Assembly: GCA_001791715.1 (NCBI GenBank)
Contig: MGFD01000030.1
Location: 9,246 to 41,609, forward strand
Reading direction: 5' to 3'
DNA length: 32,364 bases
DNA from: Candidatus Uhrbacteria bacterium RIFOXYB2_FULL_45_11
Lineage (GTDB): Bacteria > Patescibacteriota > Patescibacteriia > UBA9934 > GWF2-40-263
Shown: in pieces, positions 10,688 to 13,371 of the stretch
Position numbering within the stretch: the stretch's first letter is position 1
Layout: every line of letters begins with the position of its first letter
Position numbers and translations under genes: made by a program
Notes under the pieces: generated by a model
Database searches by the model: none
What the model saw: only the letters and a program-made list of their open reading frames with translations
Told to the model about the DNA's origin: nothing

Positions 10688-10764
10688 GCGCTCGTAGCTC
10701 AGCTGGATAGAGCATCAGCTTGCGGAGCTGAGGGTCGTAGGTTCAAATCCTGCCGGGCGCACCA
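10688..10764 (+). tRNA. tRNA-Arg (anticodon GCG), CCA encoded
   Basis: GCGCTCG TA GCTC AGCTGGATA GAGC A TCAGC TTGCGGA GCTGA GGGTC GTAGG TTCAAAT CCTGC CGGGCGC A CCA. A20, C35 and G36 fit Arg identity. Confidence 0.85.
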
Positions 10765-10772
10765 TAACAATT

Positions 10773-11102
10773 ATGGCTTGGGTATATATATTAAAAAGCG
10801 ATCTTGATGGTCGTTTTTATGTTGGAAGTACGACGGATATTGAGCGTAGAATTATTCAGCATGAACGAAATCAAACACCATCAACATATCGAATGCAGGC
10901 GCATAAACTGGTTTTCTCTCAAGAATATTCAACGCTTCGTGAAGCTCGAGAAATTGAGAGGCGACTTAAAAAACTGAAACGAAAAGATTATTTACAAAAG
11001 ATTATAAATGAGGGTTTGATTCGAATGCGACCTGGCGAGAGCCCCGACGCGCCGAATGATAAACTGTCGGCGGTCGGGGTCCCGACAATCGACAGTATTT
11101 AA
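10773..11102 (+). CDS. small GIY-YIG nuclease-domain protein
   Basis: MAWVYILKSDLDGRFYVGSTTDIERRIIQHE... The ATG lies only 8 nt after the tRNA-Arg CCA. The stop codon sits in the loop of a hairpin (arms at 11081-11094 and 11105-11119). Confidence 0.8.
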   Translation: MAWVYILKSDLDGRFYVGSTTDIERRIIQHERNQTPSTYRMQAHKLVFSQEYSTLREAREIERRLKKLKRKDYLQKIINEGLIRMRPGESPDAPNDKLSAVGVPTIDSI

Positions 11103-11120
11103 CGTGTCGATTCGTCGGGA

Positions 11121-11157
11121 CTGAGGGTCGTAGGTTCAAATCCTGCTGGGCGCACCA
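11121..11157 (+). repeat. duplicated 3' half of tRNA-Arg (direct repeat of 10728-10764)
   Basis: ctgagggtcgtaggttcaaatcctgcYgggcgcacca. 36 of 37 positions are identical to the 3' part of the intact tRNA. Confidence 0.9.
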
Positions 11158-11164
11158 CAAAAAA

Positions 11165-11189
11165 CTTGATCTTCACGATCGAGTTTTTT
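11165..11189 (+). terminator. terminator after the partial tRNA copy
   Basis: cttgatc-ttcac-gatcgag followed by T6. Confidence 0.55.
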
Positions 11190-11211
11190 GTTTTGCCCTC
11201 CCTCTGTTACC

Positions 11212-13371
11212 ATGTCTTCATCTATGTCTCTTCGACTCACAACGCCTGTTTCTGGACTTCCGGGAATAGGGGATAAAGCTGCGACCGATCTTGCCTCGAT
11301 TCATGTGAAAACCGTTCGGGATCTTTTGTGGTATGTGCCGTTTCGTTACGATGACTTTTCGAAGCGTGTACCGATTGCGAAGGCTCCAATCGATACTCCT
11401 GTGACGATTGATGCACGCATTAAGTCGATTGGGCTTCGTCCTTCAAGATCAAGTCGTGTGAAGATTGTGGATGCGGTGATTGAAGATGAGACGGGAGAGT
11501 TGAAAGTGATATGGTTCAATCAACTGTATTTGTTAAAGACGATGCTGGTTGGATCGAAACATTCCTTTGCAGGTTTGATCGACCATCGATTTGGAAAAAC
11601 GTTTTCGAATCCGATCCATGAACCTGTTGGACAGAATGTGAATACTGGTCGCATTGTTCCGGTGTATGGATTGACGGGCGGAATCACGATGCGCAAACTG
11701 CGTGACGCGATCAAACGCTCGCTTACGATTGTCGACACACTTCCAGATTGGTTGCCGAGCGAGATTGTCGCATCAAAAGAATTGCCAGCATTGTCAGCGG
11801 CACTTTCGAGCGTACACTTTCCAGAATCACACGAAGCCTTGCAGCGCGGAATAGATCGTCTCAAGTTCGACGAATTATTTTTGCATCAGATGTTGTTCGA
11901 AGAAGTACGCCGCGATCGCAAGACCAAGAATGCGACCGCGATCCCAATCGATGAGGCATCGATTAAAACGTTTGTTGCAACACTTCCGTTTACGCTTACG
12001 CGCGCGCAAAAAGTGGCGGCCTGGGAAATTGTTCAAGATCTCGCGAAGGATGTTCCGATGAATCGTTTGCTCGAGGGTGATGTTGGATCTGGAAAAACGG
12101 TCGTCGCCGCGATCGCCGCACACGCTGCGATGGAACCCCCTCTCCCTTTGGGGGAGAGGGATGGGGAGAGGGGTGTTTCGGTTGTGTACCTTGCGCCAAC
12201 GGAAATTCTCGCAACACAACAACACAAAGCGTTTTGTAAAATGATGCCTTCTCGAAACATTGCACTCCTCACACATAATCAAATTTTTTATAATGCGGAG
12301 AAAGTTAAACGCGCAGAGTTGATCGAGAAAATCTCGAGCGGCGCGGTCGACTGTTTGATCGGAACACATGCGGTTTTACAAGAGGGAATTGATGTTTCAA
12401 ATGCGTCGCTTGTGATTATCGACGAGCAACACAGATTCGGTGTTGCGCAACGTCATGCGCTTTTGCATCGTAACCCCTCTCCCCAACCCTCCCCCTCGCA
12501 GGGGAGGGAGTACGCGCCGCATTTACTTTCGATGACCGCAACGCCAATCCCTCGCTCGCTTGCGCTCACGATTTACGGTGACCTCGAACTTTCCATTCTC
12601 GACGAGCTTCCAAAAGGCCGCAAGCCCATCGGAACCGCAATGGTGCCGGTCGAGCAACGCGTTGGTATGTGGAAACATGTTCGGTCCGAGATTGAAAGCG
12701 GAAGACAAGCATTCGTGATTTGTCCGCTCATCGATCCATCCGATTCGCTTGGAAGCAAATCTGTGACAGAAGTTGAGAAAATGCTCACAGCCCTCTCTCC
12801 TCATCGAGGAGAGAGCGGGGAGAGAGGTGTTCTGAACGGTTTACGTGTCACAACGCTTCATGGAAAGTTGAAGTCGGACGAGAAACAAAAACGCAATGAG
12901 GATTTTCGTGACGGAAAGATCGACGTGCTTGTTTCCACAACTGTGGTCGAAGTCGGTGTCGACGTGCCGAATGCGACCGTCATGGTCATCATGAGCGCCG
13001 AGCGATTCGGCCTTGCACAGCTTCACCAGCTGCGAGGACGTGTCGGACGATCTGATCTGCAATCGTATTGCTACTTGTTGCCCGACGATTTGAATCCACA
13101 TTCGAACAATCGTTTGCAAGCCGTGGTCGAGTCGCAGAACGGATTTGAGCTTGCCGAGCGCGATCTTGAATTGCGCGGCGCCGGAAACGTCTTTGGGAAC
13201 GCCCAGTCCGGATTCCCAGACTTCCAGTTCGCAACGTCTGCGGACGTTCCGCTCATGAAACAAGCGCGCGATTGGTCGCAAAAACTTCTTCTCGAAAAAG
13301 ATTTCTTTGAGAAACATCCACTCGTGCGTGCGCGGATCGAAGAAGCACTCGAACAGATTCATTTGGAATAA
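11212..13371 (+). CDS. recG: ATP-dependent DNA helicase RecG
   Basis: GDVGSGKTVVA, DEQHRFGV, MTATPIPRSLA, TTVVEVGVDVPNAT and QLRGRVGR motifs. ATG 11212 was preferred over TTG 11188. Confidence 0.9.
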   Translation: MSSSMSLRLTTPVSGLPGIGDKAATDLASIHVKTVRDLLWYVPFRYDDFSKRVPIAKAPIDTPVTIDARIKSIGLRPSRSSRVKIVDAVIEDETGELKVIWFNQLYLLKTMLVGSKHSFAGLIDHRFGKTFSNPIHEPVGQNVNTGRIVPVYGLTGGITMRKLRDAIKRSLTIVDTLPDWLPSEIVASKELPALSAALSSVHFPESHEALQRGIDRLKFDELFLHQMLFEEVRRDRKTKNATAIPIDEASIKTFVATLPFTLTRAQKVAAWEIVQDLAKDVPMNRLLEGDVGSGKTVVAAIAAHAAMEPPLPLGERDGERGVSVVYLAPTEILATQQHKAFCKMMPSRNIALLTHNQIFYNAEKVKRAELIEKISSGAVDCLIGTHAVLQEGIDVSNASLVIIDEQHRFGVAQRHALLHRNPSPQPSPSQGREYAPHLLSMTATPIPRSLALTIYGDLELSILDELPKGRKPIGTAMVPVEQRVGMWKHVRSEIESGRQAFVICPLIDPSDSLGSKSVTEVEKMLTALSPHRGESGERGVLNGLRVTTLHGKLKSDEKQKRNEDFRDGKIDVLVSTTVVEVGVDVPNATVMVIMSAERFGLAQLHQLRGRVGRSDLQSYCYLLPDDLNPHSNNRLQAVVESQNGFELAERDLELRGAGNVFGNAQSGFPDFQFATSADVPLMKQARDWSQKLLLEKDFFEKHPLVRARIEEALEQIHLE
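12136..12175 (+). repeat. in-frame palindromic mini-element A within recG
   Basis: CCCCCTCTCCC-TTTGG-GGGAGAGGG-AT-GGGGAGAGGGGTG, translated as PPLPLGERDGERGV. Confidence 0.8.
12474..12510 (-). repeat. in-frame palindromic mini-element B within recG (reverse orientation)
   Basis: The reverse complement reads CTCCCTCCCC-TGCGAG-GGGGAGGG-TT-GGGGAGAGGGG. In the recG frame it is translated as NPSPQPSPSQGRE. Confidence 0.75.
12791..12829 (+). repeat. in-frame palindromic mini-element C within recG
   Basis: CCCTCTCTCCTC-ATC-GAGGAGAGAG-C-GGGGAGAGAGGTG, translated as SPHRGESGERGV. Confidence 0.8.

What the first reader, a model, noticed from the sequence alone, without database searches (positions are those of the whole stretch)
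10688..11189. GIY-YIG gene cassette bracketed by a 37-nt duplication of the tRNA-Arg 3' half
An intact tRNA-Arg (10688-10764) is followed after 8 nt by a 109-codon GIY-YIG ORF. Next comes a 14-bp hairpin whose loop carries the stop codon. Then comes a second copy of the tRNA 3' half (11121-11157), identical at 36 of 37 positions and starting in the 3' strand of the anticodon stem. The presumable original tRNA terminator follows. This is the footprint of an insertion into a tRNA gene that brought its own replacement 3' half, as tRNA-targeting integrative elements do. Here the whole unit is only about 393 bp, and its only gene is a minimal GIY-YIG nuclease with no integrase. A homing-type or otherwise undescribed tRNA-targeting mini-element is a reasonable hypothesis.
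Basis: partly seen in the sequence, partly recalled or inferred. Interest (0 to 1): 0.75.

Follow-up and report, generated by a model that had tools for sequence, protein, structure and literature searches.

The report
tRNA-lodged mini GIY-YIG nuclease and hairpin cassette
A 393-bp insertion in a tRNA-Arg gene carries a tiny nuclease gene and two DNA hairpins, and it is one copy of a widespread, apparently undescribed cassette that sits in tRNA genes of ultra-small (CPR) bacteria and keeps the tRNA working by duplicating part of it.

Summary
The window has an intact tRNA-Arg(GCG), a GIY-YIG ORF 8 nt downstream, two strong hairpins, a 36/37-identical copy of the last 37 nt of the tRNA, then a terminator. 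Related genomes have empty sites with the tRNA joined directly to that terminator, and one has two tandem cassettes.

The unit belongs to a large family (at least 2,256 protein clusters, top hits all CPR/Patescibacteria). In essentially all 80 loci examined, the 87-aa single-domain nuclease gene abuts a tRNA gene on the same strand. It is accompanied by a rigid double hairpin (HH: CCGACG…GTCGG-4 nt-CCGAC…CGTCGG) set inside a partial copy of that tRNA, mostly after nt 10-11 or 15-17 (D arm). The window's "3' half" is a decayed nt 16-77 copy.

The hairpins are Watson-Crick palindromes with no strand bias, so they act at the DNA level. They also spread alone, even in frame inside a ribosomal protein gene.

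The closest known system is the Ssn family of hairpin-directed single-strand DNA nucleases. Phage SegB is a functional parallel.

The best reading is an Ssn-like nuclease/hairpin cassette that enters tRNA genes by insertion-duplication. No description was found in nine full-text literature searches. The mechanism is inferred, not shown.

The parts
10688..10764 (+). Intact tRNA-Arg(GCG), 77 nt with encoded CCA. It is the functional copy and presumably supplies the transcript that carries the nuclease ORF.
   Evidence: ARAGORN. Rfam RF00005, 67.1 bits. 100% identical to the tRNA of syntenic L081 and L082.
10765..10772 (+). 8-nt spacer (TAACAATT) between the tRNA 3' end and the ATG. No separate promoter is evident.
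   Evidence: Sequence. Spacers of the same type, 7-9 nt long, occur in L081, L082 and L004.
10773..11102 (+). GIY-YIG nuclease ORF of 109 codons. The conserved domain is aa 1-87 (10773-11033). The 22-aa tail is read-through into hairpin DNA and is not conserved.
   Evidence: Pfam PF01541 E=2.7e-14. Homologs are 86-88 aa, and Y5, Y16, R26, H30 and E62 are invariant. dN/dS is 0.075-0.21 against the syntenic copies.
11042..11079 (.). Hairpin H1 (CCCCGAC-G-...-GTCGGGG), first half of the double hairpin HH.
   Evidence: Family consensus from 91 hairpin pairs.
11080..11120 (.). Hairpin H2 (TCCCGAC...C-GTCGGGA), second half of HH. The ORF stop codon (11100-11102) lies in its loop, which appears incidental.
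   Evidence: Stop positions differ among relatives (L081a/b and L082).
11121..11157 (+). Displaced remnant of the tRNA-Arg gene (gene nt 41-77), 36/37 identical to the intact copy. It has T where the intact copy has C at position 66.
   Evidence: L081 cassette 1 shows the undeleted form, nt 16-77. T66 is shared with the tRNA of empty-site L090.
11158..11196 (+). The tRNA's original terminator-like hairpin plus T-run.
   Evidence: Inverted repeat I1 and fold. A near-identical sequence directly follows the uninterrupted tRNA in L090-L092. The simple terminator scan did not call it.
10723..10770 (+). Left copy of the 48-nt direct repeat that brackets the 393-bp unit. The right copy is 11116-11163.
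   Evidence: the repeat finder family D1, 90% identity, spacing 393.

Best explanation
The 393-bp unit is one copy of a widespread CPR/Patescibacteria cassette with three parts.

1. An 87-aa single-domain GIY-YIG nuclease gene related to the Ssn family of hairpin-directed single-strand DNA nucleases.
2. A rigid pair of DNA palindromes (HH).
3. A fragment of the tRNA gene it lives in, interrupted by HH in the D arm.

The cassette entered tRNA-Arg by recombination inside the tRNA sequence (insertion-duplication). The crossover lay on the side of HH that leaves an intact tRNA. In the window ('type B') the intact tRNA lies upstream and also provides transcription for the nuclease gene. The HH-capped, 5'-truncated tRNA copy plus the original terminator lie downstream, and this copy has since lost 25 nt.

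By inference from Ssn, the nuclease binds HH when the DNA is single-stranded or extruded and cuts beside it. That would make breaks inside tRNA-homologous DNA, which would drive gain, tandem amplification and loss of cassettes.

Shown here: the presence/absence variation, the tandem copies, the partial tRNA duplications, the HH architecture and its independent spread, and purifying selection on the protein.

Inferred: what the nuclease cuts, and the recombination route.
For: **Presence and absence at one locus.** Empty sites occur in L093 and L090-L092, one cassette in the window and L082-L089, and two tandem cassettes in L081.

**Two nuclease lineages at this locus.** L081 carries a+b, L082 carries a, and the window carries b. 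The window gene is about 82% identical in nucleotides to L081b, while the flanks are 73-75%. Against L082 the upstream flank is 88% and the RecG flank 77%, while the gene is 77%.

**tRNA linkage in the family.**
- 62 of 80 loci have a same-strand tRNA starting 30 nt or less after the gene, 72 of 80 within 120 nt, and 4 have it just upstream.
- The remaining loci are intron-containing tRNA-Asn genes, a contig end, or a remnant lying first.

**Partial tRNA copies.**
- nt 1 to 10-17 lie upstream of the gene in type A.
- nt 7/8/10-15 + HH + 16-76 lie downstream in type B (L001, L004, L054, L081).
- These copies are often 100% identical to the adjacent tRNA.

**HH.**
- 216 of 273 CCGAC…GTCGG hairpins lie within 150 nt of the gene.
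- 88 of 91 pairs have an exact 4-nt spacer and share a dyad-symmetric consensus.
- There is no sense/antisense energy bias (83 versus 84) and few G·U pairs (1.5% on the sense strand, 2.9% on the antisense).
- HH also occurs without the gene and in frame inside the L7/L12 gene.

**Co-evolution.** The protein tree clusters by arrangement, tRNA identity and HH site.

**Protein relatives.**
- The family profile scores 47 bits on a Rhizobium Ssn flanked by Ssn-related motif (SRM) repeats.
- It scores 40 bits on UPF0213 structures, and also hits the I-TevI catalytic domain and SLX1.
- Ssn proteins are 94-aa hairpin-binding ssDNA nucleases whose genes are flanked by their repeats (PMC11893778).

**Selection.** dN/dS is 0.075-0.22.

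**Remnant.** It has T66, as does the tRNA of empty-site L090, whereas the intact copy has C66.
Against: - There is no biochemical evidence, so the substrate and cut site are unknown.
- HH does not fit the published Ssn repeat motif: 0 hits in the window and 1 in 461 kb of CPR loci.
- CDD cd10448 membership could not be tested. The profile is only slightly closer to Ssn than to UPF0213.
- No recent transfer was caught. The most similar cassettes in different genomes are about 82% identical, roughly tracking their flanks. Long vertical inheritance with differential loss therefore fits as well as repeated gain.
- Strong purifying selection could also mean a host-beneficial function.
- Moving to a new tRNA type needs an illegitimate step that the model does not explain.
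- The intact tRNA still carries the D-arm sequence, so how self-cutting is avoided is open.
Confidence: 0.6

Rival explanations
1. This is a classical free-standing homing endonuclease. The protein recognises the double-stranded tRNA gene (D-arm region) of cassette-free alleles and makes a double-strand break. The cassette is then copied in by repair, as with phage SegB. HH is only a passenger, or a disruption of the target site in the spare tRNA copy.
For: - The fold is GIY-YIG, with weak matches to intron and homing endonuclease models.
- Presence/absence varies at one locus.
- HH sits at recurrent D-arm positions 10|11 and 15|16, as a cut-site disruption would.
- SegB cuts inside tRNA genes, is tRNA-linked across phages, and drives recombination-dependent tandem amplification of tRNA+segB (PMC2330249; PMC13096335). 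L081 shows such a tandem.
Against: - The protein is only 87 aa with no DNA-binding domain, whereas characterised GIY-YIG proteins other than Ssn carry additional domains (PMC11893778).
- The intact tRNA next to the gene keeps the putative target.
- HH is conserved, rigidly built and spreads on its own, which a passenger would not do.
- The nearest characterised relatives are the Ssn and UPF0213 families.
- No phage relatives were found.
Confidence: 0.2
2. This is a domesticated, non-mobile Ssn-like system. The nuclease and its hairpins serve the host, for example by limiting recombination or transformation at tRNA loci or by shaping tRNA operon transcripts. The tRNA fragments would be by-products of hairpin-stimulated slippage and local duplication.
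For: - Purifying selection acts on the protein (dN/dS 0.075-0.22).
- Cassette divergence roughly tracks flank divergence.
- SsnA in Neisseria modulates transformation (PMC11893778).
- Tandem duplications of HH plus a partial tRNA occur without the gene (L050).
Against: - The cassette is absent from close relatives at the same locus.
- It sits at many different tRNA species in different lineages.
- Copy number at one site varies from 0 to 2.
- Gene-less decayed remnants exist.

Together these form the pattern of an accessory, selfish element.
Confidence: 0.13
3. The hairpins act as RNA. They would be a structured leader or trailer that controls stability, processing or translation of the nuclease mRNA, or a tRNA-like RNA, and the DNA palindromy would be secondary.
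For: - HH is co-transcribed with a tRNA.
- It folds very stably (z=-7.8).
- It lies in the 5' leader in type A and in the 3' trailer in type B.
Against: - There is no strand asymmetry in folding energy (83 versus 84) and almost no G·U pairs.
- The position relative to the ORF is not fixed.
- HH occurs inside coding genes and away from the nuclease gene.
- There is no Rfam match.
- SsnA does not act on RNA.
Confidence: 0.04
4. This is a leftover of a larger tRNA-targeting genomic island whose integrase and cargo were deleted, or an assembly duplication.
For: Direct repeats made of a tRNA 3' part are the classic attL/attR footprint.
Against: - The same approximately 400-bp architecture recurs in more than 80 loci with no integrase nearby.
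- In most loci the duplicated part is the 5' end.
- Independent assemblies agree on the layout.
- The two copies differ at one base.
Confidence: 0.03

Closest known systems
Ssn family of site-specific single-strand DNA nucleases (SsnA of Neisseria meningitidis; CDD cd10448) with their NTS/SRM hairpin repeats (PMC11893778)
   Same: - Both are single-domain GIY-YIG proteins of about 90 aa.
- The catalytic Tyr/Tyr/Glu residues lie at matching positions (SsnA Y6/Y17/E64; here Y5/Y16/E62).
- The gene lies next to 20-50-nt hairpin-forming inverted repeats.
- The repeats also occur elsewhere in the genome.
- The family profile scores 47 bits on an SRM-flanked Rhizobium Ssn.
   Different: - The hairpin sequence does not fit the SRM motif.
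- The two hairpins are back-to-back on one side of the gene rather than flanking it.
- The gene is always fused to a tRNA gene with a partial tRNA duplication; that paper does not mention tRNA or Patescibacteria.
- Family membership (cd10448) was not testable here.
Phage T4/T6 SegB, a free-standing GIY-YIG homing endonuclease in the tRNA gene cluster (PMC2330249; PMC13096335)
   Same: - Both are GIY-YIG nucleases tied to tRNA genes.
- SegB cuts inside tRNA genes.
- SegB promotes recombination-dependent tandem amplification of a tRNA+nuclease segment, which resembles the two tandem cassettes of L081.
   Different: - From my own knowledge, SegB is about 220 aa with a DNA-binding part, against 87 aa here.
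- SegB is phage-borne, while no phage relatives of this family were found.
- SegB has no hairpin partner.
- SegB shows no regular partial tRNA duplication.
tRNA-targeting integrative elements (tyrosine-integrase islands and prophages)
   Same: Insertion into a tRNA gene leaves an intact tRNA plus a displaced partial copy as direct repeats.
   Different: - There is no integrase, and the whole unit is 393 bp.
- In most family members the 5' part, not the 3' part, is duplicated.
- The junction is in the D arm.
REP/REPIN-RAYT, IS200/IS605 and Rickettsia palindromic elements (from my own knowledge, and as discussed in PMC11893778)
   Same: - All involve short palindromic repeats, often as inverted doublets.
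- They are linked to a single small nuclease gene.
- The repeats proliferate and can sit in frame inside protein genes, as HH does in L7/L12.
   Different: - The enzyme here is a GIY-YIG hydrolase, not an HUH/Y1 transposase.
- The gene is anchored at tRNA genes.
Mitochondrial mobile endonuclease ORFs that carry a replacement gene end (Allomyces atp6) and the 'double hairpin elements' of the same genomes (from my own knowledge; these papers were not among the listed results)
   Same: An endonuclease ORF is inserted into an essential gene together with a replacement piece, and the displaced piece is left as a pseudogene. Small G+C-rich double hairpins are associated with it.
   Different: That system is organellar and targets a protein-coding gene, and the proteins are unrelated in detail. 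This resemblance is a lead from memory, not a test.

Membership tests
GIY-YIG nuclease superfamily | GIY-YIG domain with the conserved Tyr, Tyr, Arg, His/Tyr and Glu residues | tested here: met
   PF01541 matches at E=2.7e-14, 53.7 bits against a cut-off of 22.6. Y5, Y16, G18, R26, H30 and E62 are invariant in 24 aligned sequences. The PDB profile hits UPF0213 proteins, the I-TevI catalytic domain and SLX1.
Ssn family (cd10448) | Single-domain protein of about 90-95 aa with no extra domain | tested here: met
   Family members are 86-88 aa. The window's extra 22 aa are read-through into hairpin DNA.
Ssn family (cd10448) | Gene lies next to hairpin-forming inverted repeats of 20-50 nt | tested here: met
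   69 of 81 loci have a CCGAC…GTCGG hairpin within 150 nt upstream, and only 2 have none within about 450 nt of the gene centre. 91 hairpin pairs share a fixed architecture.
Ssn family (cd10448) | Repeats fit the published SRM motif HGTCWYN(0-2)YYVSBRHN(0-5)WNVSBRGN(0-2)RNCYNB | tested here: not met
   A regex scan gives 0 hits in the window and 1 in 461 kb of CPR loci, against 5 hits in the 3.1-kb Rhizobium Ssn locus.
Ssn family (cd10448) | Assignment to CDD cd10448, or a place in the Ssn clade of a GIY-YIG tree | tested here: inconclusive
   CDD is not available here. The family profile scores 47.0 bits on an SRM-flanked Rhizobium Ssn, 40.3 bits on UPF0213 BH0048 and 34.4 bits on EF2693. It is therefore related to both families, with no clear placement.
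Ssn family (cd10448) | Cuts only single-stranded DNA, a few nt upstream of its hairpin | not testable with these tools
   This needs the purified protein. The only indirect support is that the hairpins are strand-symmetric DNA palindromes.
Free-standing GIY-YIG homing endonucleases (Seg type) | N-terminal GIY-YIG domain plus a linker and C-terminal DNA-binding domain | tested here: not met
   The protein is 87 aa. Pfam, NCBIfam and PHROGs matches cover only the catalytic domain.
Free-standing GIY-YIG homing endonucleases (Seg type) | Presence/absence polymorphism at a fixed site in related genomes | tested here: met
   0, 1 or 2 cassettes occur at the same tRNA-Arg locus.
Free-standing GIY-YIG homing endonucleases (Seg type) | Cleavage of the cassette-free allele and co-conversion of flanks | tested here: inconclusive
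   Cleavage is not testable here. The C66/T66 difference and the G7/A7 difference against L090 are compatible with import and co-conversion, but also with point mutation.
tRNA-targeting integrative elements | Integrase (tyrosine or serine recombinase) encoded at one end | tested here: not met
   The only ORF with family support in the 393 bp is the GIY-YIG gene. No recombinase lies next to the cassette in syntenic loci.
tRNA-targeting integrative elements | Direct repeats formed by the 3' part of the tRNA gene | tested here: met
   The 48-nt repeat has a 36/37 core. In most family members, however, the repeat is the 5' part.
Group I intron in a tRNA gene | Catalytic intron RNA interrupting the tRNA, usually in the anticodon loop | tested here: not met
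   There is no Rfam match in the window apart from tRNAs, and the tRNA is uninterrupted. True group I introns were seen in tRNA-Asn of L002 and L056 as a separate feature.

The most novel reading that the evidence does not exclude
The nuclease gene plus HH is a new class of minimal mobile element. A hairpin-directed GIY-YIG single-strand nuclease, with no recombinase, would move itself and its 40-nt double hairpin into the D arm of tRNA genes. It would always carry, or create, a tRNA fragment so that a working tRNA survives. The universally conserved tRNA sequence would serve as portable homology for insertion-duplication into any genome that takes up the DNA. The hairpins would also spread alone as tiny non-autonomous elements, even in frame inside protein genes.
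Probability: 0.35. Interest if true: 0.9.

Novelty: new variant of a known kind. Interest (0 to 1): 0.8.

Why it matters
This would give the newly described class of single-domain, hairpin-directed GIY-YIG nucleases a concrete genomic lifestyle: lodging in tRNA genes of CPR bacteria. These organisms have tiny genomes and mostly single-copy tRNA genes, and their mobile DNA is poorly known.

It explains recurrent tRNA pseudo-fragments and contig breaks next to tRNAs in CPR assemblies. It also corrects annotation; this ORF is deposited as a 69-aa hypothetical protein.

It offers a natural set of hundreds of co-evolving nuclease/hairpin pairs. These could be tested as programmable single-strand DNA cutters.

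If the insertion-duplication route is right, it shows how an element without any recombinase can use a conserved host gene as its own homology arm.

Tried and rejected
- **RNA-level reading of the hairpins.** Rejected. There is no sense/antisense energy bias, G·U pairs are 1.5% (sense strand), and HH occurs inside coding genes.
- **Stop codon in the hairpin loop as a regulatory device.** Rejected as incidental. Relatives stop before H1, in the H1 loop or in the H2 loop.
- **The 109-aa length as real.** Rejected. Homologs are 86-88 aa. Tails such as 'SPDAP' and 'QAQPRR' are translations of hairpin or tRNA DNA.
- **Integrase-island remnant and assembly duplication.** Rejected.
- **Phage origin.** No relatives in 50,697 phage records, and only weak partial hits in IMG/VR.
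- **Literal Ssn membership through the SRM motif.** Not met.
- **Getting the N. meningitidis SsnA sequence for a direct comparison.** It was not available, and the paper's supplements are not held. An SRM-flanked Rhizobium homolog was used instead.
- **Search for recent transfers among sampled loci.** None above about 82% identity.
- **Identical proteins in different genomic contexts.** P0005, P0127 and P0173 each showed only one context.
- **Literature.** Nine full-text searches found no description of this tRNA-linked cassette.
Full report
**Observation.** The window comes from Candidatus Uhrbacteria bacterium RIFOXYB2_FULL_45_11. A 69-aa deposited protein of that genome is 100% identical to part of the ORF.

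ARAGORN and Rfam place an intact tRNA-Arg(GCG) at 10688-10764. Eight nt later a 109-codon ORF (10773-11102) matches the GIY-YIG domain (PF01541, E=2.7e-14).

One direct repeat family brackets the unit: 10723-10770 and 11116-11163 (48 nt, 90%, spacing 393). Its core is 36/37 identical.

Just upstream of the second copy lie two strong hairpins, H1 (11042-11079) and H2 (11080-11120). The region folds with z=-7.8. The motif CCCGAC-N-GTCGGG occurs nowhere else in the 32 kb, against 0.04 expected. A terminator-like hairpin with a T-run follows.

**Empty sites and copy-number variation.** Relatives share the gene order BacA, 202-aa gene, 173/179-aa gene, tRNA-Arg, (cassette), RecG. They were found through the nuclease protein (L081-L089) and through the upstream 179-aa protein (L090-L093).

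- L093 has the tRNA followed by a terminator and RecG.
- L090-L092 have the tRNA followed directly by CAAAAAACCTGATCTTCATGATCGGGTTTTTTGTTT. This is nearly the same sequence that follows the window's remnant.
- These loci contain no GIY-YIG gene and no hairpins.
- L082-L089 have one cassette.
- L081 has two in tandem: tRNA, gene a, HH, tRNA nt 16-77, gene b, HH, decayed remnant.

The window's gene belongs to lineage b. It is about 82% identical in nucleotides to L081b, where the flanks are 73-75%. L082 carries lineage a. There the upstream flank is 88% and the RecG flank 77% identical to the window, but the gene is 77%.

This pattern needs either differential loss from a tandem ancestor or independent gains. 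Either way the cassette is accessory and unstable. dN/dS of 0.075-0.22 shows the protein is kept functional.

The remnant has T at position 66, as does the tRNA of L090 (A7/T66). The window's intact copy has G7/C66, like L081 and L082. This fits the view that the remnant is the displaced original end, but one transition is weak evidence.

**Family-wide anatomy.** The nuclease family has at least 2,256 clusters at 90% identity. Nearly all members are 86-88 aa, and the top hits are all from CPR/Patescibacteria. Y5, Y16, G18, R26, H30 and E62 are invariant.

In 80 loci from one-genome-per-species assemblies:

- 62 have a same-strand tRNA starting 30 nt or less after the gene, and 72 within 120 nt.
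- 4 have it just upstream.
- Of the remaining five, two hold a group I intron by Rfam (L002, L056) and L010 looks the same.
- L049 is cut by a contig end, and L003 has a remnant lying first.
- The tRNAs are Thr, Arg, Phe, Val, Asn, Ile, Ala and Pro.

The conserved non-coding partner is a double hairpin (HH): NN-CCGAC-G…GTCGG-NN followed by NN-CCGAC…C-GTCGG-NN.

- The spacing is exactly 4 nt in 88 of 91 pairs.
- 216 of 273 such hairpins lie within 150 nt of the gene.
- HH always sits inside a partial copy of the neighbouring tRNA. In 35 resolved loci it lies after nt 10-11 (16 loci) or 15-17 (14 loci), and rarely at 5, 12, 13 or 22.

Two arrangements exist.

- **Type A (most loci):** tRNA nt 1-10/15, HH, the next 5-13 nt of the tRNA, nuclease gene, full tRNA.
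- **Type B (a clade that includes the window):** full tRNA, nuclease gene, tRNA nt 7/8/10-15, HH, tRNA nt 16-76 (L001 Ala, L004 Arg, L054 Pro, L081).

The window's 37-nt 'half' equals the L081 type-B copy minus 25 nt between two CTG triplets. The protein tree groups by arrangement, tRNA identity and HH site, so gene, hairpins and target co-evolve.

**Nature of the hairpins.** Among 212 unique hairpins, sense and antisense strands fold equally well (83 versus 84). G·U pairs make up only 1.5% of pairs on the sense strand and 2.9% on the antisense. Inner stems differ between loci while staying complementary, and hairpins are often nested in the loop of H2. They are therefore DNA palindromes, not a strand-specific RNA structure.

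They also occur without the gene.

- HH-bearing tRNA leaders lie in front of other tRNAs (L007, L074).
- One such leader is tandemly duplicated (L050).
- In a complete CPR genome (L110, CP066687.1) six HH lie in 5.2 kb.
- One of these is a 45-nt in-frame insertion in the hinge of ribosomal protein L7/L12, and another is a 39-nt in-frame insertion in a 222-aa ORF.

HH is thus a small mobile repeat in its own right.

**Comparison with known systems.** A profile of the family hits the UPF0213 structures 1ZG2 and 1YWL, then the I-TevI catalytic domain and SLX1. No close relatives exist in phage collections.

The literature search turned up the Ssn family (PMC11893778).

- Its members are 94-aa single-domain GIY-YIG proteins.
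- They bind a hairpin repeat only as single-stranded DNA and cut a few nt upstream.
- Their genes are flanked by the repeats, and Y6, Y17 and E64 are essential.
- That paper does not mention tRNA or Patescibacteria.

A Rhizobium plasmid gene flanked by perfect SRM repeats served as a bona fide Ssn. The family profile scores 47 bits on it, slightly more than on UPF0213 proteins.

HH does not fit the SRM motif. I therefore do not file the cassette as an Ssn member, but 'works like an Ssn' is the best-supported reading.

Phage SegB is a functional parallel. It is a GIY-YIG enzyme that cuts in tRNA genes, is tRNA-linked across phages, and drives recombination-dependent tandem amplification of tRNA+segB (PMC2330249; PMC13096335).

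**Mechanism (inferred).** Both arrangements follow from one scheme. The cassette carries a tRNA fragment interrupted by HH. Recombination with the resident tRNA occurs on the side of HH that leaves one intact tRNA.

- A fragment lacking the 3' part gives type A.
- A fragment lacking the 5' part gives type B.

This is ordinary insertion-duplication, as seen when a DNA with an internal gene fragment integrates by a single crossover. A nuclease that cuts beside HH would place the break inside the tRNA homology and stimulate gain, amplification and loss. Recombination between the tRNA repeats explains the tandem cassettes and the clean empty sites.

Three things remain unexplained.

- How a cassette switches to a new tRNA species.
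- How the intact tRNA avoids being cut.
- Whether the protein cuts single- or double-stranded DNA.

**Verdict.** It opens onto a large tRNA-lodged nuclease/hairpin system in CPR bacteria for which I found no description in nine full-text searches. I rate it a new variant of known kinds (Ssn-type nuclease/repeat pairs and tRNA-targeting insertions), with high interest.

Noticed in passing
window 12144-12174, 12473-12503, 12784-12824 (inside RecG ORF 11188-13371): Three copies of a roughly 30-nt GGGGAGAGGG-type element lie inside RecG, one of them inverted and one a small palindrome. They are read in frame as PLPLGERDGERG, PSPQPSPSQGREYAP and SPHRGESGERG. RecG here is 727 aa, against 672-679 aa in syntenic relatives. 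They look like small repeat insertions inside a coding gene.
   Followed up: partly
L110 1468-1512 and 1946-1984 (CP066687.1, complete CPR genome): The double hairpin HH is inserted in frame in the hinge of ribosomal protein L7/L12 (45 nt, read as PTLAVGAPTPEDVG) and in a 222-aa ORF (39 nt). This resembles Rickettsia palindromic elements. Six HH lie in this 5.2-kb locus.
   Followed up: partly
L002 3656-3903; L056 440-796; L010 downstream of 3258: The tRNA-Asn(GUU) genes directly after the nuclease gene look interrupted after the anticodon. Rfam RF00028 (group I intron) matches there in L002 and L056 at 80-85 bits. ARAGORN misses these tRNAs.
   Followed up: partly
L050 1383-1536; L007 5617-5670; L074 1822-1862: HH-bearing partial tRNA leaders (tRNA nt 1-10, HH, nt 11-23) stand in front of full tRNA-Arg genes with no nuclease gene. 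In L050 the unit is tandemly duplicated.
   Followed up: partly
L090-L092 3538-3684 and downstream of 3800: In the relatives whose terminator matches the window's (empty site), 147 extra nt separate the 179-aa gene from the tRNA, and the downstream gene is not RecG. The locus is therefore rearranged on both sides.
   Followed up: no
window 10688-10764; also L081-L093: The tRNA-Arg of this lineage has anticodon GCG rather than the usual bacterial ACG. This holds with or without the cassette.
   Followed up: no
L001, L004, L011, L019, L032, L033, L049, L086 (contig ends): Many contigs stop within about 30-220 nt after the nuclease gene, consistent with assembly breaks at the duplicated tRNA and hairpin sequence.
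   Followed up: no
window 10773-11102: The deposited annotation of this ORF is a 69-aa hypothetical protein (P0004, A2318_01295). It is much shorter than the 109-codon ORF and covers only 63% of it.
   Followed up: no
L101 1439-1834 (Rhizobium sp. CIAT894 plasmid pRheCIAT894e): This is a textbook Ssn arrangement. A 94-aa GIY-YIG gene is flanked by inverted SRM repeats (CGTCATCCCAGGGCTTGACCCTGGGATCCAC), next to an IS4 transposase and not near a tRNA.
   Followed up: yes
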